Notes under the pieces: generated by a model | Told to the model about the DNA's origin: nothing | The model's database searches: none | The model's input: the letters and a program-made list of their open reading frames with translations, nothing else | Sequence record: OX638288 | DNA: 64,000 nt | Direction: 5' to 3' (one strand) | DNA from: Escherichia phage UP19 | Translations under genes and position numbers: made by a program | Part shown: positions 41,076-50,019 of the stretch, in pieces | Layout: every line of letters begins with the position of its first letter | How positions within the stretch are numbered: position 1 is the first letter of the stretch

Positions 41076-41080
41076 GTTAT

Positions 41081-41106
41081 GGGACTCTTCGGAGTCCCAT
41101 TTTTGT
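41081..41106 (+). terminator. intrinsic terminator
   Basis: GGGACTC-TTCG-GAGTCCC followed by T-rich run. Confidence 0.7.
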
Positions 41107-42012: not shown

Positions 42013-42300
42013 ATGTTTATGACCACTTATTTCGATACTCGTAAAAATTTCTGTGAAGTTGTTTTCTCTAAGGCAGGTAAAGATGTTCCTGCTGACAAAC
42101 AGCCTACTCGTGAATCCATTAAGGCCTATGCTGATGTGGTTTGTCCAGTAGAATTCCGTACAGTCAATGGTCGTGACACCCTAGCAATCACTAAGCTCAA
42201 CCGCGATATTAACATCGACCCAAGTGTCGCCCGCGAAGTCAATACTTCTGACATCTACGGCGGTAATGTTAAATCACATGGATTTCAGATGAGGTTCTAA
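42013..42300 (+). CDS. hypothetical protein
   Basis: ATG after hairpin GGAGGC-TTCG-GCCTCC plus GAGGAAA ribosome-binding site; ORF track 41980. Confidence 0.5.
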   Translation: MFMTTYFDTRKNFCEVVFSKAGKDVPADKQPTRESIKAYADVVCPVEFRTVNGRDTLAITKLNRDINIDPSVAREVNTSDIYGGNVKSHGFQMRF

Positions 42301-42494
42301 TGCAACTATTCTTATCACAAACCGTTCAGTTAAAAGGTATAGGTATTCCTGGTATGATTTCAAAGGTTCTACCTGCTTTTAAAATTAACGGTAAAGTAAT
42401 TAAAGAAGCCTATGCAGTCCTGTGGGTCGACGGAACTGAAGACGTGCGCATGGGTTCTGAATTGTCTGTAATCAAATGTTTGAAGCGAGGATAA
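42300..42494 (+). CDS. hypothetical protein
   Basis: 64 aa ORF. Confidence 0.4.
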   Translation: MQLFLSQTVQLKGIGIPGMISKVLPAFKINGKVIKEAYAVLWVDGTEDVRMGSELSVIKCLKRG

Positions 42495-42495
42495 T

Positions 42496-42711
42496 ATGGT
42501 CAAGAAACTGATTCAGAAATTGTTAGGTACGGAAATGGTTGAAGTGACTTATCGTGTGACTGATGTTTCTCCTCATACGGCGGACCATTTAGAACCTTAT
42601 ATCATGACAATTAAAATGCCTAAACATGACGGTGGTTTATCCATTGAAGACCGACTGCCTGGTTATGGTTATTGGGCTGATGTCGAAATTATAAGTGTCA
42701 AAGATGTCTGA
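42496..42711 (+). CDS. hypothetical protein
   Basis: 71 aa ORF. Confidence 0.45.
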   Translation: MVKKLIQKLLGTEMVEVTYRVTDVSPHTADHLEPYIMTIKMPKHDGGLSIEDRLPGYGYWADVEIISVKDV

Positions 42712-43162
42712 GTTAGAAATTAGAAGTAACTTTCCGTGGCCATCATGCGCATTAAGTAACTTTGCTAAATGGCCATTCGTTATGGATGGTATCCAATTTG
42801 GTGGACTCGAAGGATTCCTCCAAGGGTGTAAGGTGAAAAATGTTGAACAACAAAGACGTATATTTAGGATGTCCGGGTTAGACGCGCAAAAAGCTGGACG
42901 AGCTTATGCTAGGGCTCAGGACCGTGGCACGTTGTTCTGGCTTGGGACCCCGTTTTCAAGATATTCCGAAGCATGGAAAGAGCTTTACGAAAGTGCGTAT
43001 TTTGAAGCAGCACTCCAGAACAAAGGATTCCGAGAAGCTTTACAAGCCACTAAAGGTAAGGTTTTAAAGCATTCAATGGCAAGCCACCTCAAAGAATGTG
43101 ATACAATACTAACTGAAAAAGAGTTTATCGACATCCTAAACAAATTGAGAGATTTATTATGA
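42704..43162 (+). CDS. NADAR / YbiA-like (DUF1768) domain protein
   Basis: ..LSNFAKWPFVMDGIQF..LEGFLQGCKV.. resembles E. coli YbiA ..FSNFAAWPIKVDGKTW..SEHYFQAQKF..; start ATG overlapping upstream stop (ORF track GTG 42695). Confidence 0.55.
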   Translation: MSELEIRSNFPWPSCALSNFAKWPFVMDGIQFGGLEGFLQGCKVKNVEQQRRIFRMSGLDAQKAGRAYARAQDRGTLFWLGTPFSRYSEAWKELYESAYFEAALQNKGFREALQATKGKVLKHSMASHLKECDTILTEKEFIDILNKLRDLL

Positions 43163-43797
43163 AACCAGTTATCTTAACAGATATCGATGGAGTATGTTTA
43201 AGTTGGCAGTCCGGCTTGCCTTATTTCGCACAGAAATATAATTTGCCTTTAGAACATATTTTGAATATGATTCAGGACGAACGTTTCTTATCTCCAGGCG
43301 AACTGTTTAATTGTGACGACGAATTAGGCGCACGTTTAATCGAGAAATATAACCAGTCAGATTTTATTCGTTATCTGTCACCTTACATGGACGCATTAAA
43401 ACACATCAACAAGCTCAAAAAAGACTTCGATTTTGTAGCTGTGACTGCGCTAGGTGACTCAATCGATGCTCTGCTGAATAGACAATTCAATTTGAATGCT
43501 TTGTTCCCTGGCGCATTCAAGGAGATTCTGATGTGTGGTCATTCAGAATCAAAAGAAGACCTGTTCATAAGAGCTAAAAATACGTACGGCAAACGCATTA
43601 AGTTTTATGTTGATGATTTGGCCCACCACTGTGATGCCGCATCTAATATTCTCATGGATATCCAAGTCTATTGGTTAGCCCGTGGTGAACGCGACTTTAA
43701 ACCTAATTTAGCTGTAAAGGTTAATTCATGGGACGATATTGCAGCTATAGAATCCCTTCGTAATAATGCGGCCGTTGAATGGATTGCACGAGGTTAA
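43159..43797 (+). CDS. HAD-superfamily hydrolase (phosphatase / nucleotidase-like)
   Basis: N-terminal DxDGV motif (ILTDIDGV); 212 aa. Confidence 0.55.
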   Translation: MKPVILTDIDGVCLSWQSGLPYFAQKYNLPLEHILNMIQDERFLSPGELFNCDDELGARLIEKYNQSDFIRYLSPYMDALKHINKLKKDFDFVAVTALGDSIDALLNRQFNLNALFPGAFKEILMCGHSESKEDLFIRAKNTYGKRIKFYVDDLAHHCDAASNILMDIQVYWLARGERDFKPNLAVKVNSWDDIAAIESLRNNAAVEWIARG

Positions 43798-43798
43798 T

Positions 43799-44062
43799 AT
43801 GTTTGTTGTTCATACAATTACTGACGGAACCCCTAAATCCCATGATTACGGAAACGTTAGACAATTCCTTCGATTGAACCCTGTATATTTCCAAGCCAAA
43901 GATGAAGATATCTTTATCCAATGTGTTCGGCGTGGATTTATGTATGTTACTGAATATGATATTAAAGATAAGCGTATTATTTCGTATCACAAAACTTTAA
44001 ATGAGCTTTTAGATGAAGTAGCTTATAATAGAAGTACACAAACTGTAAGGACGGTAAAATGA
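43799..44062 (+). CDS. hypothetical protein
   Basis: ATG after GAGG; in frame with ORF 43766..44062. Confidence 0.45.
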   Translation: MFVVHTITDGTPKSHDYGNVRQFLRLNPVYFQAKDEDIFIQCVRRGFMYVTEYDIKDKRIISYHKTLNELLDEVAYNRSTQTVRTVK

Positions 44063-45582
44063 TTTTAGATATTTTGAACGAAATTGCGGCTATCGATTCT
44101 ACTAAAGCTAAAGAAGCTATTATTGCTCGTGAAAAGGATAACGAGCTTCTGAAACGTGTTTATCGTATGGCTTATACTCGTCGTCTGAACTACGGTATTA
44201 AAAAGTGGCCAGAACCTGGATTTACGTCTCAATCCTTTGGTATGATTACACTTGAAGACCTTCTTGATTTCGCTGAGTTCACACTAGCCACCCGTAAGAT
44301 TACAGGTAATGCGGCTATTGAAGAACTTGCCCAAATTATTGCAGATGCTAAGGGTCCAGACGCTGAGGTACTACGTCGTGTAATGATGCGCGACCTTGAA
44401 TGTGGCGCATCGATTTCTATTGCTAACAAGGTTTGGAAAGGTTTAATCCCTGAACAACCTCAAATGTTGGCTAGTTCTTATGACGAAGCTTTGATTAAGA
44501 AAAATATTAAATGGCCTGCGTTCGCCCAATTAAAAGCTGACGGTGCCCGTTGTTTTGCTGAAGTTCGTAACGATGGCGTAACATTCCTTACTCGTGGTGG
44601 TAATGAATACCAAGGGCTTAATCTTTTGGCTGCTGAATTAATGGCTATGACCGAAGAAGCTAGACAGCGCCATCCTAATGGTGTTATGATTGACGGCGAA
44701 TTAGTTTACCACACTCCTAAAGTAGAACCTAAAGCGTCTAATGATTTGTTTAGTATGTTTGATGAGGAACTTCCTGAATTAAGTAAAGCCAAGGAATTCC
44801 AAACTGTCGCCGATCGTTCTACTTCAAACGGGCTAGCTAACAAGGCTCTTCAAGGAACTATTACTCCAACCGAAGCCGCAGGTATGGTATTACAGGCGTG
44901 GGATTATGTCCCATTGGATGTCGTATATTCCGAAGGTAAAATTAAAGGCGATAAGTATGATGTACGCTTTGCAGCCTTAGAACTTATGGTTGCTCATAAT
45001 GTCGTATTGCATGGTACAACTCGTGTTGAAGCTATCGAAAACCAGTGGGTTAATAATCTTGACGAAGCTAAAGTCGTTTATAAGAAATATGTCGACCAAG
45101 GCCTGGAAGGTATTATCCTTAAGAACATGGACTCCTACTGGGAAAACCGCCGTTCTAAGAATCTTATCAAGTTCAAAGAAGTAATCGATATCGCTTTAGA
45201 AGTGGTAGGTTATTATGAACACTCTAAAGACCCAAACAAACTTGGTGGTGTCGAGCTAGTATCGCGGTGTCGTCGAATTACATCTGATTGTGGTTCAGGC
45301 TTTAAAGATACCACCCATAAGAAAGATAAATCAGGTAAAAAGGTATTGATTCCATTAGAAGACCGCCCTGATTTAGACCGTGAACTTCTTATGAAACAAG
45401 CTCGTGAAGGTAAGTTGATTGGACGTATTGCTGACTGTGAATGTAATGGTTGGGTTCATTCTAAAGGACGTACTGATACTGTAGGTATTTTCCTTCCAAT
45501 TATTAAAGGTTGGCGTTTCGATAAAACTGAAGCTGATACATTTGAAGATGTATTTAGTGATTGGTCTCAAACTGGACTATAA
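44059..45582 (+). CDS. 30: ATP-dependent DNA ligase gp30
   Basis: 507 aa (T4 ligase 487 aa); adenylation motif I KADGAR. Confidence 0.9.
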   Translation: MILDILNEIAAIDSTKAKEAIIAREKDNELLKRVYRMAYTRRLNYGIKKWPEPGFTSQSFGMITLEDLLDFAEFTLATRKITGNAAIEELAQIIADAKGPDAEVLRRVMMRDLECGASISIANKVWKGLIPEQPQMLASSYDEALIKKNIKWPAFAQLKADGARCFAEVRNDGVTFLTRGGNEYQGLNLLAAELMAMTEEARQRHPNGVMIDGELVYHTPKVEPKASNDLFSMFDEELPELSKAKEFQTVADRSTSNGLANKALQGTITPTEAAGMVLQAWDYVPLDVVYSEGKIKGDKYDVRFAALELMVAHNVVLHGTTRVEAIENQWVNNLDEAKVVYKKYVDQGLEGIILKNMDSYWENRRSKNLIKFKEVIDIALEVVGYYEHSKDPNKLGGVELVSRCRRITSDCGSGFKDTTHKKDKSGKKVLIPLEDRPDLDRELLMKQAREGKLIGRIADCECNGWVHSKGRTDTVGIFLPIIKGWRFDKTEADTFEDVFSDWSQTGL

Positions 45583-45804: not shown

Positions 45805-47892
45805 ATGACCGAACAATTGAATGAGGTGTTTGAGTCCGAAGGCACCCTGCCTACTGTAAACTTAAACCCAAAACTTAAAGTACCCCAGATTTGGAAGATT
45901 GGCGACGCCGAATCCCAATTAGTTGCTCGTATGGTATCTTATGCCTCTGAAGGCGATGCTATTAAACAGGTTAAATTAGGTGATAAATATGCCCACGTTA
46001 TTTTGATGAGTTTATCAGCTAAAGGTACTCCAGCCGAACTTAAAGGTGGATTAGGCCTTACTCCTATTGATGCTATTAATACCATTTTCGACGTAGTATT
46101 CGAACAAGTTAAAAAGCTTCGTATGGATGCTGTGATGTTCCGTTTTCCAACCAAGAAAATGAAAGGACAAGGACCTATTGTCCAACGGATTATCCAACGT
46201 TTGGTAGCACAGAAAACCGGTGGACGTTTTAAAGTAGTTCCAGCCATGTACCAATTTACCGGTAAACATACTTATATCCTAGTAGTGCGTAAACAAGCTG
46301 ATATCGAAGATATCAAAGGTATGCCTGGAATTAATGCCGAATTATATACTAAGGTAGATTCTGATGTTGGTGAAGTTTATATTTCTAAAAAAGAAGGCGC
46401 TCAGGTTACTAAAGAAACCGCTATTGCCGGCAGTATTGCTAAAGTTGAAGAACGTCGCACTGATAAAATGGTTATAACCAAGACTAAGATTTCTCGTCGT
46501 GCGATTGCGGCAAGCCAGTCATTAGAAGCAGACCGTAATGAAGGTGAATTATTTCAGAAATATGAACAAACTGCCAATGAGTTCAGTGCGCCTGCTACGG
46601 CGGAATTAATTCCACAAGCAGTCGAAGTTGAATTATCATTATCATCCGAAACAGCTAAGGATAAGCTGGCTACGGCTATTGATTTTAAAATTTATAATAC
46701 TATGGATGATTCATTTAAATTTGCGGATGAAGTTTCTTACGGTGATAAAATTAACTCTTCTTTAGAAAAATTTGTCAAAAAAATTAAAAATGAAAAAACC
46801 ACGTCAGTTAAAGCTTTAGCCGCCTTTGTTGAAGCTGCTAATGAAATCGCAGAATCTATTAAAAGTGATTGGTTTGAAGATTATAGAAAAGACAATTTCC
46901 ATTTGGAAAAAGAGATATTGAATGAAAACAGTGAAAGAGTATGGAAACAACGTAAGTCTTCATTCTTGTCTAAGATAATGTATACATACGCTATAGAATC
47001 AACTAGAGAAATTCTTAATATAACAACATCTCGAGACCCTAAACAATATACACTTGCAGAAAAACGAGCTATCAGAGAATACGCCTCTTCAGCTTATATT
47101 GATATTAACAATGTCCTTCTTGGCCGTTATAAACCGGGCTTTTATGAAGTTTTGGACGAAAGCGAAGTTAAACGTGCTATTGATGGAATGGATTCTGCCT
47201 TTAAAAATGGTGACCGTTTACCTGAAGGAATAATGGTTTATAGAGCACAATCTTTGCGCGCGCCTATCTACGAAGCATTAGTTAAAAATAAGGTATTCTA
47301 TTTTAGAAACTATGTTTCAACCTCATTGGCCCCAATCATTTTTGGTGGCTTTAAAGAGAATGCGGCTATTGGTCTTGCTTCCGATGATGTTCGAAAAGAA
47401 TTAAACATTGATAATAATGACGAAGGCGTTACCATCTCGGCTAGTCAAGTGCGTACACATATGTATGCGCCGGATCAAATCCGTGTTGATGTTGGCTGGG
47501 CTATTAGTGGCGCTCATAAGGTTAACGTGATTTATCCTGGCCAATTAAGCATGCATGCCAACGAAAAGGAAATAATTTTACCACGCGGGCTACTTGTAAA
47601 AATAGATAAAATCGTGGATGCATCAGCCAATACTGGTTCTGGGGCGGTGTCTAACAATAAATTTATTCAAGCTGAAGTTATGACATCAGATGAGCTTCAA
47701 GAATCTGTAGTGTATGATGGTGACGTACTAATGGAAACCGGCGAGTTGGTTGTGTATCAAGATGATTTCGATACTTCCGAAAGCCCTGTATCTTTTGATT
47801 CATTTGTTAAATCTACACGGTTTGATGTACTGCCTCTTTTGGCTTCATGCATAGACCTCTATGGCATCCCAGAAAAATTCATCCAAGGGTAA
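45805..47892 (+). CDS. alt: Alt-like ADP-ribosyltransferase (head-packaged), paralog 1
   Basis: 695 aa (T4 Alt 682 aa); ...ELYTKVDSDVGEVYISKK.GAQVTKE.AIAGSIA... and ...FYFRNYVSTSLAPIIFGG... match recalled T4 Alt; R / S-T-S / E-x-E catalytic motif pattern. Confidence 0.85.
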   Translation: MTEQLNEVFESEGTLPTVNLNPKLKVPQIWKIGDAESQLVARMVSYASEGDAIKQVKLGDKYAHVILMSLSAKGTPAELKGGLGLTPIDAINTIFDVVFEQVKKLRMDAVMFRFPTKKMKGQGPIVQRIIQRLVAQKTGGRFKVVPAMYQFTGKHTYILVVRKQADIEDIKGMPGINAELYTKVDSDVGEVYISKKEGAQVTKETAIAGSIAKVEERRTDKMVITKTKISRRAIAASQSLEADRNEGELFQKYEQTANEFSAPATAELIPQAVEVELSLSSETAKDKLATAIDFKIYNTMDDSFKFADEVSYGDKINSSLEKFVKKIKNEKTTSVKALAAFVEAANEIAESIKSDWFEDYRKDNFHLEKEILNENSERVWKQRKSSFLSKIMYTYAIESTREILNITTSRDPKQYTLAEKRAIREYASSAYIDINNVLLGRYKPGFYEVLDESEVKRAIDGMDSAFKNGDRLPEGIMVYRAQSLRAPIYEALVKNKVFYFRNYVSTSLAPIIFGGFKENAAIGLASDDVRKELNIDNNDEGVTISASQVRTHMYAPDQIRVDVGWAISGAHKVNVIYPGQLSMHANEKEIILPRGLLVKIDKIVDASANTGSGAVSNNKFIQAEVMTSDELQESVVYDGDVLMETGELVVYQDDFDTSESPVSFDSFVKSTRFDVLPLLASCIDLYGIPEKFIQG

Positions 47893-47895
47893 ATA

Positions 47896-50019
47896 ATGGA
47901 AAATTTAAACGAGGTTTTTGATAGTGATTCCGCTAAAAACTATCCAGTAACAAATCTTAAACCAGGTTCCGGTATTCCACAGATTTTCTCTATCCAAGCA
48001 CCAGGTAATGATAATCTGGTTGCTCGTATGGTATCTTATGCGTCTCAAGGAGACGCTATTAAAATGGTTAAGCCTGGCGACAAATACGTTCATGTTATTT
48101 TGATGAGTTTGTCTAGCAAGGGTGCTCCGGCTGAACTCAAAGGTGGCCTTGGTTCTGACCCACTTGGTACACTGAATACTATTTTCGATACTGTATACGA
48201 ACAAGTAAACAAACTTAAAATGGATGCAGTTTTGTTCCGTTTCCCTACCAAGAAAATGAAAGGTAAGGGTCCTACCGTTCAGCGTGTATTAGCTCGTTTG
48301 GTGATGGCACGTACCGGTGGTAAGTTTAAAGTTGTCGATGATATGTTCCAGTTTAGTGGTAAACATACATACGTTCTTTTAGTACGTCGTGGTTCTAATA
48401 TCGAAGATATCAAGGGTATGCCTGAAATTGATGCCGATCTTTATACCAAGGTTGAGTCTAAAGTTGGCGAAGTTTATGTTTCTAAGAAAACAGGCCAGGC
48501 CGTAAGTAAGGTCGAAGCCGTAGCGGCATCTATCGCCCAGGTTGAAGAAAAACGTACCGATAAGGCTGTCATCTCTCGTACTAAGATTTCCCGTCGTATG
48601 GCTGCAGCAGCGCAGTATTCTACTTCCGAACCTGAAACTTTATCCCCTAAAGAATTGCAGGTTTATAATGAGTTTGAAGCTTCTGTACCTGTTCATTCGG
48701 CTGAAGGTCCTGAGAACGAAGGTATTGAACAGATTAGCCAGAACTTTAAAAAAGGTGCTATTACTAAAATGCGTCAGGCCTCTCAGTTTAAATCTAAGAG
48801 TGAGGACCTTGCCAACTTTAGATACACCATTGCTCTCACGCACGCTTTAATGACTGATAGTAAATTTAAACTAAATTATGCTAATAGAGATAAACAAGGG
48901 TTTGAAATTTACTCTAATAATATGGCATTTTTTAATACAGAAGTCGATAGACTTTTAAGTGGCCTTTCTCAAATCAATACTACCAATAGTCTGGATATTA
49001 TTAAGAGAATTGTTAATAACCTGAGCGCCCGTTTTCAGGGATCTCCTTCAGAGAAAGCATCCCGAATTGCTTTCGCTATGGAAGCCGTTTATAAACTGAT
49101 TAACGATTCTATTGGCGATGCGTATGCTTATTCAGGTGAGCTCATTAAACCTAAGGGCTTGACTAAAGACGAAAGCAATGCTATTATTGAATATTGCGCA
49201 GCTGAATATGCTCCTATGAACTTATTCCTTTTAGGTAAACCTGAATCCGAAAACAATACAACGGCTATTAAATTGATTAAGGATTTAGACTCAGCATTTA
49301 CTAAGGGTATTAAACTCCCTAAGGGTACTATTTTGTATCGTGGTCAGGATTTGCCATACAAAATTCTGCGTCATAATATCGATAACAAAACATTTTACTT
49401 TAAGAACTTTGTGTCAGCCTCATTAAAGCCTAACATCTTTGGTGAATTCGGTAAAAATTATATGGCCCTCGACAACCAAGCCGTTTTTGTTGGTGGTGAA
49501 GGTTCTTTATCCTCCGCTGATGAGTTGTTTAAATTGGCTAGTGGTAGTTCATCTGATGTGGGTGAAGTCGATGACGAAGAGGTAGAATGGGAAGAAGACG
49601 AGTTTGGTAATCCAATTGCACCTGAAGGCCCTGCAGACAGGATTGCTGAAATCGGTATGGTTATTCGAGGTGCTGAAGCAGTTAAAGTTATCGCTCCTGG
49701 CGACCTTACAGAATATGCTGAAGAAGCAGAAATTATCCTTCCGCGTGGATTATTGATGAAGGTTGATAAAGTAGCGGCTTTTGCTATGAATGATAGGGTA
49801 TCTCACAAATACCTTATGGAAGCTACAGTGACGTCTCCTTCAGAACTCAGTGAATCCGTTTACGATGGCGACCATCTGATGGAAACTGGCGAAGTTAAAT
49901 TGATGAATGGGTTTAAAGAATTCCTAGTTTCAGAATCTGTTTCAGAAAGTAATGAGGCTATGGAAATCCTTGCTGCATCTTTGGACATCTCTTCTTTATC
50001 AAATAAATTCAAAATGTAG
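47896..50019 (+). CDS. Alt-like ADP-ribosyltransferase, paralog 2 (divergent)
   Basis: 707 aa; N-terminal ~230 aa similar to paralog 1; C-terminal ...FYFKNFVSASLKPNIFGEF... and ...EEAEIILPRG...; divergent middle. Confidence 0.8.
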   Translation: MENLNEVFDSDSAKNYPVTNLKPGSGIPQIFSIQAPGNDNLVARMVSYASQGDAIKMVKPGDKYVHVILMSLSSKGAPAELKGGLGSDPLGTLNTIFDTVYEQVNKLKMDAVLFRFPTKKMKGKGPTVQRVLARLVMARTGGKFKVVDDMFQFSGKHTYVLLVRRGSNIEDIKGMPEIDADLYTKVESKVGEVYVSKKTGQAVSKVEAVAASIAQVEEKRTDKAVISRTKISRRMAAAAQYSTSEPETLSPKELQVYNEFEASVPVHSAEGPENEGIEQISQNFKKGAITKMRQASQFKSKSEDLANFRYTIALTHALMTDSKFKLNYANRDKQGFEIYSNNMAFFNTEVDRLLSGLSQINTTNSLDIIKRIVNNLSARFQGSPSEKASRIAFAMEAVYKLINDSIGDAYAYSGELIKPKGLTKDESNAIIEYCAAEYAPMNLFLLGKPESENNTTAIKLIKDLDSAFTKGIKLPKGTILYRGQDLPYKILRHNIDNKTFYFKNFVSASLKPNIFGEFGKNYMALDNQAVFVGGEGSLSSADELFKLASGSSSDVGEVDDEEVEWEEDEFGNPIAPEGPADRIAEIGMVIRGAEAVKVIAPGDLTEYAEEAEIILPRGLLMKVDKVAAFAMNDRVSHKYLMEATVTSPSELSESVYDGDHLMETGEVKLMNGFKEFLVSESVSESNEAMEILAASLDISSLSNKFKM

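What the first reader, a model, noticed from the sequence alone, without database searches (positions are those of the whole stretch)
42704..43797. NADAR/YbiA-like protein and HAD hydrolase pair upstream of DNA ligase, near the ADP-ribosyltransferase genes
The 152-aa ORF has the SNFA.WP..(V/M)DG core typical of NADAR (DUF1768) proteins, a family implicated in ADP-ribose and related NAD-derived metabolism. It is ATGA-coupled to a HAD-family phosphatase (DIDGV motif). An ADP-ribose-processing enzyme beside phage ADP-ribosyltransferases could act as a reversal or self-protection function, or in nucleotide salvage. The link is inference only.
Basis: partly seen in the sequence, partly recalled or inferred. 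Interest (0 to 1): 0.5.

Follow-up and report, generated by a model that had tools for sequence, protein, structure and literature searches.

The report
Known anti-DarT NADAR gene plus ligase-linked phosphatase
The 152-aa gene is the ortholog, in a JS98-like T4-type phage, of T4 gene 30.3 (AdfN), an already characterised enzyme that strips ADP-ribose from guanines in phage DNA to defeat the bacterial DarTG1 defence; the HAD phosphatase next to it (gp30.2) is an uncharacterised gene that tracks with DNA ligase rather than with the NADAR gene.

Summary
Both genes exist exactly as described. The window is a JS98-like Dhakavirus, 97% identical in DNA.

**ORF 42704-43162 is gp30.3.**
- It matches Pfam PF08010 at E 2e-65 and is 85% identical to T4 gp30.3 over 152/152 residues without gaps.
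- T4 gp30.3 is published as AdfN, a NADAR-family guanine-ADP-ribose DNA glycohydrolase that is necessary and sufficient to counter DarTG1.
- The catalytic E36 and K43, the phage-type H123 and the C-terminal helix are all present.
- An AlphaFold model (pLDDT 94.6) matches only the three solved NADAR structures.

**The proposed links are not supported.**
- T4 transposon data show 30.2 is dispensable against DarTG1 (log2FC -0.12, against -7.25 for 30.3).
- Alt-like genes flank the NADAR gene in only 16 of 80 loci.
- The ATGA overlap is typical of the whole gene run.

**gp30.2 tracks with DNA ligase instead.** It is the ligase's most constant neighbour (68 of 70 loci) and stays adjacent even where the gene order is swapped.

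Verdict: an already known gene, with a modest side-lead.

The parts
42704..43162 (+). gene 30.3 = adfN ortholog: 152-aa phage-type NADAR, a guanine-ADP-ribose glycohydrolase. Catalytic codons: E36 at 42809-42811, K43 at 42830-42832, H123 at 43070-43072. The C-terminal helix (residues 138-151) is intact.
   Evidence: PF08010 E 2.1e-65. 85% identity to T4 gp30.3 over 152/152 residues with no gaps. E36, K43 and H123 are invariant in 49 homologs. AF2 pLDDT 94.6. The Foldseek top 3 hits are YbiA 2b3w, PnNADAR 8bau and G. lovleyi NADAR 8bat. 16 of 48 family members also hit Pfam NADAR PF08719. The function of the T4 ortholog is shown in PMC11825919.
43159..43797 (+). gene 30.2: 212-aa C1-capped HAD-superfamily phosphatase of unknown substrate. 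Motif I is D8/D10 (43180-43188), motif II is T96 (43444-43446), motif III is K132 (43552-43554) and motif IV is D152-D153 (43612-43617).
42496..42711 (+). gene 30.4 (71 aa, unknown function). Its stop codon overlaps the 30.3 start by 8 nt.
   Evidence: phrog_2042 E 6.3e-35; ORF coordinates. The T4 ortholog shows a partial DarTG1-dependent loss of insertions (log2FC -1.79, adjusted p 0.014), most simply explained as polarity on 30.3.
43799..44062 (+). gene 30.1 (87 aa, DUF3045), lying between the HAD gene and the ligase gene. Its stop overlaps the ligase start (ATGA).
   Evidence: PF11243 E 2.4e-20; JS98 annotation.
44059..45582 (+). gene 30: ATP-dependent DNA ligase, the conserved partner of gene 30.2.
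   Evidence: PF01068 E 1.6e-23 and phrog_114 E 5e-156. The HAD gene is adjacent in 72 of 75 ligase loci and in 68 of 70 in the controlled count.
45805..50019 (+). Two tandem Alt-type ADP-ribosyltransferase genes (45805-47892 and 47896-50019), 41% identical to each other. These are context only, not part of the NADAR function.
   Evidence: PF03496 E 1.3e-28 and phrog_802 E 1e-256; ORFs; paralog identity. T4 alt is neutral on a DarTG1 host (log2FC -0.01).
41079..41100 (+). Terminator-like hairpin after gene 30.9. It marks the likely upstream limit of the tightly packed gene run from 30.8 to 30.
   Evidence: 9-bp stem with 5 GC pairs followed by a T-run. This is a consensus match only.

Best explanation
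The pair is two separate genes from the conserved early-gene run upstream of DNA ligase in T4-type phages.

Gene 30.3 is the ortholog of T4 adfN. It is a minimal, core-only NADAR enzyme. It hydrolyses the N-glycosidic bond between ADP-ribose and the N2 amino group of guanine, the mark the host toxin DarT1 (of the DarTG1 toxin-antitoxin defence) places on phage DNA to block replication. Made early in infection, it cleans the phage DNA and lets replication proceed. It acts as an orphan antitoxin mimic. It does not bind the toxin and it does not act on thymine-ADP-ribose (DarT2).

Gene 30.2 is an independent HAD phosphatase with a helical C1 cap. The cap type suggests a small-molecule substrate. 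A nucleotide monophosphate is the most likely one, because the closest relatives are NT5C-type 5'(3')-deoxyribonucleotidases. Its conserved partner is DNA ligase, not the NADAR gene.

What is shown here: identity, orthology, fold, catalytic residues and gene-neighbourhood statistics. What is shown in the literature for T4: enzymatic activity, the anti-DarTG1 phenotype, and the dispensability of 30.2. What is inferred: that this phage's protein behaves like T4's, and the substrate class of gp30.2.
For: gp30.3:
- PF08010 E 2.1e-65; 85% identity to T4 gp30.3 over 152/152 residues without gaps, in the same gene order 30.4-30.3-30.2-30.1-30-alt.
- E36, K43 and H123 are invariant across 49 homologs. 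E36 and K43 are the residues mutated in T4 AdfN. His at the third catalytic position is the stated hallmark of phage NADARs (PMC11825919, PMC11125620, PMC11543638).
- The protein is full length, unlike the inactive RB69 allele, which lacks the last 15 residues. The model has the terminal helix 138-151.
- The only significant PDB fold matches are the three NADAR structures.
- 16 of 48 family members also match Pfam NADAR, best E 1.5e-7.
- In T4, the adfN deletion abolishes plaquing on DarTG1 cells, ectopic adfN rescues RB69, and purified protein removes ADP-ribose from DarT1-modified DNA.
- An independent transposon screen gives 30.3 log2FC -7.25, adjusted p 0.

gp30.2:
- All four HAD motifs are invariant or near-invariant.
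- The model has pLDDT 94.8, with five helices inserted between strands 1 and 2, which is a C1 cap.
- DGVxxxWxSGL aligns with DGVLADFESGL of cytosolic 5'(3')-deoxyribonucleotidase.
- Of 44 distant relatives reached by the family profile, 5 match NT5C (best E 1.5e-9).
- The HAD gene lies next to ligase in 68 of 68, 72 of 75 and 68 of 70 loci in three counts.
Against: - No experiment exists for this phage or any Dhakavirus. Activity is extrapolated from an 85%-identical ortholog.
- T4 AdfN works fully only during T-even infection, for unknown reasons, so the mechanism is incomplete.
- The query protein itself does not reach Pfam NADAR or TIGR02464 thresholds. Membership rests on fold, family bridging and catalytic residues.
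- T4 30.2 shows no fitness phenotype in LB, in M9 or on DarTG1 cells.
Confidence: 0.88

Rival explanations
1. One reading: the NADAR enzyme reverses or buffers ADP-ribosylation made by the phage's own Alt, ModA or ModB transferases, as self-protection or timing control. That would explain its position near alt.
For: The two alt genes lie 2.6 kb downstream on the same strand. [quoted passage not shown]
Against: An Alt-like ORF lies within 6 kb of a gp30.3-family gene in only 16 of 80 loci, all close T-even relatives. Alt/Mod enzymes are annotated as protein (RNA polymerase) ADP-ribosyltransferases. The substrates reported for the T4 NADAR are guanine-ADP-ribose in DNA and RNA; it was inactive on thymine-ADP-ribose. 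The only phenotype of 30.3 loss in T4 depends on DarTG1, and the gene is non-essential otherwise. I found no test of the enzyme on arginine-ADP-ribosylated protein, so this idea is unsupported rather than disproved.
Confidence: 0.04
2. NADAR and HAD form a two-enzyme module. The HAD would process the released ADP-ribose or a phosphorylated derivative, or would be the unidentified T-even factor that AdfN needs in vivo.
For: The ATGA overlap is conserved in T4 and its close relatives. AdfN of T4 is fully active only in T-even infections, and the authors suggest an additional phage protein. RB69, in which ectopic AdfN works, also carries 30.2. A 30%-identical HAD homolog still sits in a NADAR-HAD-ligase cluster.
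Against: In the T4 transposon screen on DarTG1 cells, 30.2 has log2FC -0.12 and p 0.61 over 71 sites, against -7.25 for 30.3. The HAD gene is absent within 6 kb of most NADAR loci (about 56 of 80). In at least seven complete T4-like genomes the two genes are about 60 kb apart while the HAD gene stays beside ligase. The overlap is typical of the whole gene run.
Confidence: 0.05
3. gp30.3 additionally, or instead, degrades soluble ADP-ribose-derived immune signals or other nucleobase-ADP-ribose adducts (for example on RNA), giving it a wider counter-defence range than DarTG1.
For: This was proposed from comparative genomics for phage NADARs (PMC9503650). All four NADAR families, including the T4 protein, also remove guanine-ADP-ribose from RNA in vitro. 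gp30.3-family genes are widespread in large phages whose hosts may lack DarTG1.
Against: No soluble substrate has been shown for any phage NADAR. The T4 enzyme is listed only for guanine adducts, not for cytidine or thymine adducts. In the parts of the DarTG1 and LB/M9 tables I read, the only phenotype of 30.3 is DarTG1-dependent.
Confidence: 0.1
4. gp30.3 is a YbiA-type N-glycosidase acting on riboflavin-pathway intermediates, or takes part in nucleotide salvage together with the HAD.
For: There is a weak match to TIGR02464 'riboflavin biosynthesis intermediates N-glycosidase' (E 0.036, 14.3 bits). YbiA is the best fold and sequence match.
Against: The score is far below the curated cut-off (73.7 bits). 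The YbiA-defining glutamate in the last strand is replaced by an invariant histidine (H123) (PMC11125620). No riboflavin genes lie nearby. DNA de-ADP-ribosylation is demonstrated for the T4 ortholog.
Confidence: 0.02

Closest known systems
T4 AdfN (gp30.3), anti-DarT factor NADAR (Johannesman et al., Nat Commun 2025, PMC11825919)
   Same: Same length (152 aa), 85% identity without gaps, same genomic slot between 30.4 and 30.2, same catalytic E36 and K43, the same phage-type histidine, and an intact C-terminal helix.
   Different: There are 23 substitutions, several of them in the last 30 residues. It comes from a Dhakavirus rather than a Tequatrovirus. It has not been tested experimentally.
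DarG1 / DarT1-associated NADAR antitoxins (Schuller et al., Mol Cell 2023, PMC11543638; PDB 8bat)
   Same: Same fold and the same Glu/Lys catalytic pair. Same reaction: hydrolysis of guanine-N2-ADP-ribose in DNA.
   Different: DarG1 has an aspartate where the phage protein has a histidine. DarG1 also carries extra N-terminal elements that form a DNA channel, whereas the phage protein is the bare core. The fold match is weaker (Foldseek E 0.16, TM 0.59). T4 AdfN cannot replace DarG1 in uninfected cells. The phage gene is an orphan, with no linked toxin.
E. coli YbiA (PDB 2b3w; Pfam NADAR PF08719)
   Same: It is the best structural match (Foldseek E 1.6e-4, TM 0.67) and shares the SNFA-WP-DG motif.
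   Different: 19% identity. YbiA has a glutamate in the last strand and is linked to riboflavin-intermediate hydrolysis and swarming, not to counter-defence.
NT5C-type 5'(3')-deoxyribonucleotidases (cdN/mdN, PDB 2jao, 4mum; Pfam PF06941), compared with gp30.2
   Different: Only 14-18% identity. The Pfam score is below threshold. The gp30.2 family has its own invariant residues (R108, N111, R175, Y64-N65, D78). No nucleotidase activity has been shown.
T4 Pnkp 3'-phosphatase domain (PDB 1ltq, 5uj0), the known HAD end-healing enzyme that works with a ligase
   Different: Pnkp has no C1 cap and acts on polynucleotide ends. Only the core of 125-129 residues aligns. gp30.2 has a large cap that would normally exclude a macromolecular substrate.

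Membership tests
NADAR superfamily | [quoted passage not shown] | tested here: met
   The AF2 model has pLDDT 94.6 and pTM 0.90. The only PDB matches with probability >=0.9 are the three NADAR structures 2b3w, 8bau and 8bat, and the next hit has E 3.2.
NADAR superfamily | Conserved catalytic Glu and Lys that hold the ADP-ribose (PnNADAR E43/K50; T4 E36/K43) | tested here: met
   E36 and K43 are present and invariant in 49 homologs. The equivalence to the PnNADAR residues is taken from PMC11825919 and PMC11543638.
NADAR superfamily | Sequence-profile match to Pfam NADAR (PF08719) | tested here: inconclusive
   The query itself gives no PF08719 hit at E<=1. However, 16 of 48 members of its family do (best E 1.5e-7), and the family profile hits YbiA at E 0.022.
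Phage NADAR / gp30.3 family (PF08010) | Profile match above the curated cut-off, and histidine in the last strand in place of Glu (YbiA) or Asp (DarG1) | tested here: met
   219 bits against a cut-off of 36. H123 is invariant. The hallmark is stated in PMC11125620 and PMC11543638.
AdfN (functional anti-DarTG1 factor) | Orthology to T4 30.3, with the full-length C-terminal helix that the inactive RB69 allele lacks | tested here: met
   85% identity over 152/152 residues with conserved synteny. Helix 138-151 is present in the model.
AdfN (functional anti-DarTG1 factor) | Removes guanine-ADP-ribose from DNA and rescues phage on DarTG1-carrying hosts | not testable with these tools
   Shown only for T4 and T2. 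It needs biochemistry and plaque assays for this phage.
HAD superfamily phosphatases | Four catalytic motifs: I DxDx(T/V), II S/T, III K/R, IV DD or ExD | tested here: met
   D8-I-D10-G-V12, T96, K132 and D152-D153. All are invariant or present in at least 90% of 49-50 homologs, and D8, D10, K132 and D153 are still invariant in 44 distant relatives.
HAD superfamily phosphatases | Rossmannoid core fold with a cap inserted after strand 1 (C1 type) | tested here: met
NT5C 5'(3')-deoxyribonucleotidase family (PF06941) | Profile match above Pfam's gathering score | tested here: not met
   12.9 bits against a cut-off of 24.8, E 0.1. 7 of 49 close relatives match at E<=0.1 and 5 of 44 distant relatives at E<=0.001. 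It resembles the family but is not a demonstrated member.
Polynucleotide 3'-phosphatase (Pnkp-type HAD) | Capless (C0) HAD core with the active site open to nucleic-acid ends | tested here: not met

The most novel reading that the evidence does not exclude
gp30.2 is a dedicated partner of the phage ATP-dependent DNA ligase. It would be a small-molecule or nick-end phosphatase whose activity supports ligation. Possible roles are hydrolysing pyrophosphate or AMP-type products, clearing a nucleotide that poisons ligation, or healing 3'-phosphate nicks. Its adjacency to ligase is kept in 68 of 70 Straboviridae loci, well above background synteny, where the next-best family is in 45 of 70. The adjacency survives an inversion of gene order in the most divergent genomes. 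No function has been assigned to this family.
Probability: 0.25. Interest if true: 0.45.

Novelty: already known. Interest (0 to 1): 0.2.

Why it matters
The main gene is a textbook-in-the-making example of a phage borrowing an antitoxin-type enzyme to undo a host DNA modification. Recognising it here allows correct annotation: public JS98-like records still call it 'hypothetical protein'. It also predicts that this phage resists DarTG1.

The finding adds nothing new about that mechanism. The only forward-looking element is the strong and apparently undiscussed linkage between the gp30.2 HAD phosphatase and DNA ligase across T4-type phages. This gives a testable handle on a widespread gene of unknown function. 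The T4 screen conditions whose 30.2 rows I read (LB, M9, DarTG1) show no phenotype for it.

Tried and rejected
1. Direct Pfam and NCBIfam NADAR matches for the query: none above threshold. I resolved this through fold search and family bridging.
2. HAD as an AdfN cofactor: rejected on T4 transposon data and weak co-occurrence.
3. NADAR-Alt functional link by neighbourhood: rejected, 16 of 80 loci.
4. gp30.4 to gp30.8 as conserved NADAR partners: found only in 14 of 80 loci, all close relatives. The DarTG1-dependent dip of T4 30.4 is most simply polarity.
5. Domain fusions of gp30.2 homologs (proteins of 258-660 aa) as functional clues: no informative Pfam domain.
6. Contexts of very distant gp30.2 relatives: the contigs were too short or unrelated. 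One relative at 30% identity kept the NADAR-HAD-ligase order.
7. A locus scan with the distant-homolog alignment failed because there was no conserved stretch to search with.
8. A literature search for a HAD-ligase link in T4-like phages returned nothing, and the only paper mentioning gene 30.2 does so in a figure legend.
9. PDB sequence searches for gp30.2 gave only marginal hits, with cdN at E 0.19-0.33.
10. The promoter scan found fewer sigma-70-like sites than in shuffled sequence and was not informative.

Full report
**What is there**

The window is a T4-type phage of the JS98 group (Dhakavirus). Region 42300-44100 is 97.1% identical in DNA to Escherichia phage JS98 over its whole length. 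The encoded gp30.3 and gp30.2 proteins are 100% identical to those of a 170,523-bp IMG/VR contig that has the length of JS98.

They correspond to T4 genes 30.3 and 30.2. The local order is 30.4-30.3-30.2-30.1-30 (DNA ligase)-alt.1-alt-alt, as in JS98, and apart from the second alt copy as in T4.

The whole run from 30.6 to 30 is packed with overlaps or gaps of 1 to 8 nt. The overlap is therefore not a special mark of this pair.

**The NADAR gene**

- The protein matches Pfam PF08010 (Phage_30_3) at E 2.1e-65.
- It is 85% identical to T4 gp30.3 over all 152 residues without a gap.
- The query does not itself reach Pfam NADAR. Its only PDB sequence hit is E. coli YbiA, across the SNFA-WP-DG motif (E 0.77; with a 49-sequence profile E 0.022).
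- 16 of 48 family members match Pfam NADAR directly, best E 1.5e-7.
- An AlphaFold model is confident (pLDDT 94.6).
- Its only meaningful PDB fold matches are the three solved NADAR structures: YbiA 2b3w, Phytophthora NADAR 8bau and Geobacter lovleyi DarG1-type NADAR 8bat.
- E36, K43 and H123 are invariant in the family alignment.

**What it does is already known**

Johannesman et al. [quoted passage not shown] They reported the following:
- Deleting it from T4 or T2 abolishes plaquing on DarTG1 cells.
- Expressing it rescues RB69, whose own allele is frameshifted and lacks the last 15 residues.
- E36A and K43A weaken the rescue.
- Purified protein removes ADP-ribose from DarT1-modified DNA.
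- It does not bind DarT1 and does not counter DarTG2.

Two biochemical papers show the T4 protein hydrolyses guanine-ADP-ribose but not thymine-ADP-ribose. They name histidine at the third catalytic position as the hallmark of phage NADARs (PMC11125620; PMC12945103; PMC11543638). An independent T4 transposon screen found 30.3 insertions lost on DarTG1 cells (log2FC -7.25, adjusted p 0; preprint 10.1101/2025.11.20.689424).

The protein in this window has all three catalytic residues and the full C-terminal helix. I therefore expect it to work the same way. That last step is inference from 85% identity, not a measurement.

**The HAD gene**

gp30.2 matches only PHROG 420, 'unknown function'. It is 75% identical to the first 191 residues of T4 gp30.2, which carries an extra C-terminal tail of about 85 residues.

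- All four HAD motifs are conserved: D8-x-D10-G-V, T96, K132 and D152-D153. D8, D10, K132 and D153 remain invariant in relatives down to 21% identity.
- The AlphaFold model (pLDDT 94.8) has five helices inserted after the first strand, which is a C1 cap.

The nearest specific family is NT5C, the 5'(3')-deoxyribonucleotidases.
- Motif I and the following W-x-SGL align with the cdN sequence.
- A deoxyribonucleotidase-like structure aligns over 164 of its 168 residues.
- A minority of relatives match the NT5C profile.

The query is below Pfam's threshold, and the structural hits are nearly tied. I therefore call it a HAD phosphatase that is probably nucleotide-directed, not an NT5C member. An exhaustive profile search shows the family is large: 483 cluster representatives at E<=1e-10.

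**Are the two genes a functional pair?**

The evidence says no.
- Among 80 viral loci carrying a gp30.3-family gene, the HAD lies within 6 kb in about 24. It is directly adjacent only in close T-even relatives.
- In at least seven complete T4-like genomes, the NADAR gene sits about 60 kb from the HAD gene (the same contigs appear).
- In T4, insertions in 30.2 are neutral on DarTG1 cells (log2FC -0.12, p 0.61, 71 sites). The gene is also non-essential in LB (72 of 72 sites hit) and neutral in M9.

I identified the DarTG1 sheet by the 30.3 signal and by the position of the labelled Data S8 sheet that follows it.

This matters because the AdfN authors suspect an extra T-even protein is needed for full activity. 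On these data, gp30.2 is not it. In the roughly two thirds of the table I read, the only other significant gene is 30.4 (log2FC -1.79, adjusted p 0.014). Its stop codon overlaps the 30.3 start, so polarity is the simplest reading. Homologs of 30.4 accompany the NADAR gene only in close relatives.

**Is the NADAR gene linked to the phage's own ADP-ribosyltransferases?**

Two Alt paralogs (41% identical to each other) do follow the ligase gene here. However, an Alt-like ORF lies within 6 kb of a gp30.3-family gene in only 16 of 80 loci. T4 alt, modA and modB are neutral in the DarTG1 screen. I found no report that the enzyme was tested on arginine-ADP-ribosylated protein. The idea is therefore unsupported rather than excluded.

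**What the HAD gene does track with**

- In all 68 viral loci found with the gp30.2 profile, an ATP-dependent DNA ligase follows on the same strand. In most loci at most one small gene lies between them; the gap reaches about 1.2 kb in one locus.
- Starting instead from the ligase (32-99% identity), 72 of 75 loci have the HAD within 5 kb.
- In three of the most divergent loci (ligase 34-36% identical) the HAD lies just downstream of the ligase instead of upstream, so the order is swapped but adjacency is kept. The only three loci without the HAD have still more divergent ligases, 32-33% identical.
- As a control I clustered all same-strand ORFs around the ligase. The HAD is present in 68 of 70 loci. 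The next most constant families are in 45 of 70, Alt-like genes in 42 and the NADAR gene in 33.

Two caveats apply. The loci are related phages, not independent samples. BLAST clustering also under-detects short, fast-evolving genes.

Fusion proteins and very distant contexts gave no functional clue. I found no paper discussing this linkage. It is the one part of the finding that is not already explained.

**Verdict**

The fold assignments are right. The proposed biology is mostly wrong or already superseded by experiments on the T4 ortholog. The gene is an already known anti-DarTG1 factor, and the neighbouring HAD is an uncharacterised phosphatase associated with ligase. Interest is low for the finding as posed, with a modest lead in the HAD-ligase association.

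Noticed in passing
window 43159-45582; loci L083-L229: The gp30.2 HAD phosphatase is the most constant neighbour of the T4-type ATP-dependent DNA ligase. It is present in 68 of 70 loci, against 45 of 70 for the next-best ORF family. In three divergent genomes (L220, L221, L223) the order is inverted but the two genes stay adjacent.
   Followed up: partly
window 42496-42711 (gene 30.4): In the published T4 transposon screen, 30.4 is the only gene besides 30.3 that is significantly depleted on DarTG1 cells in the parts of the table I read (log2FC -1.79, adjusted p 0.014). Its stop codon overlaps the 30.3 start by 8 nt, so this is probably polarity. A helper role is not excluded.
   Followed up: partly
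window 45805-47892 and 47896-50019: There are two tandem Alt-type ADP-ribosyltransferase genes, only 41% identical to each other, as in JS98. T4 has one alt gene plus remnants of a duplication (alt.-1, alt.-2).
   Followed up: no
window 43159-43797 compared with T4 (L001:6478-7311): T4 gp30.2 has an extra C-terminal tail of about 85 residues that is absent here (278 aa against 212 aa). Homolog lengths range from about 196 to 347 aa. One metagenomic protein (P0132, 302 aa) looks like a gp30.2-gp30.1 (DUF3045) fusion.
   Followed up: no
window 42906-43067 (+): A 53-aa ORF lies in another frame inside gene 30.3 and ends at the same relative position as T4's annotated internal gene 30.3'. Its start codon is not conserved, so it is probably not a real gene.
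   Followed up: no
window 41079-41100 (+): A strong terminator-like hairpin (9-bp stem followed by a T-run) lies right after gene 30.9. It suggests that the tightly packed run from 30.8 to 30 is a separate transcription unit.
   Followed up: no
public records matched (e.g. NC_010105 JS98, MW679410, MT129654): Public annotations of this gene in JS98-like phages still read 'hypothetical protein', although the T4 ortholog was named adfN in 2025. JGI's automatic name for some homologs, 'NAD-dependent protein-ADP-ribosyltransferase YbiA', describes the opposite activity.
   Followed up: no
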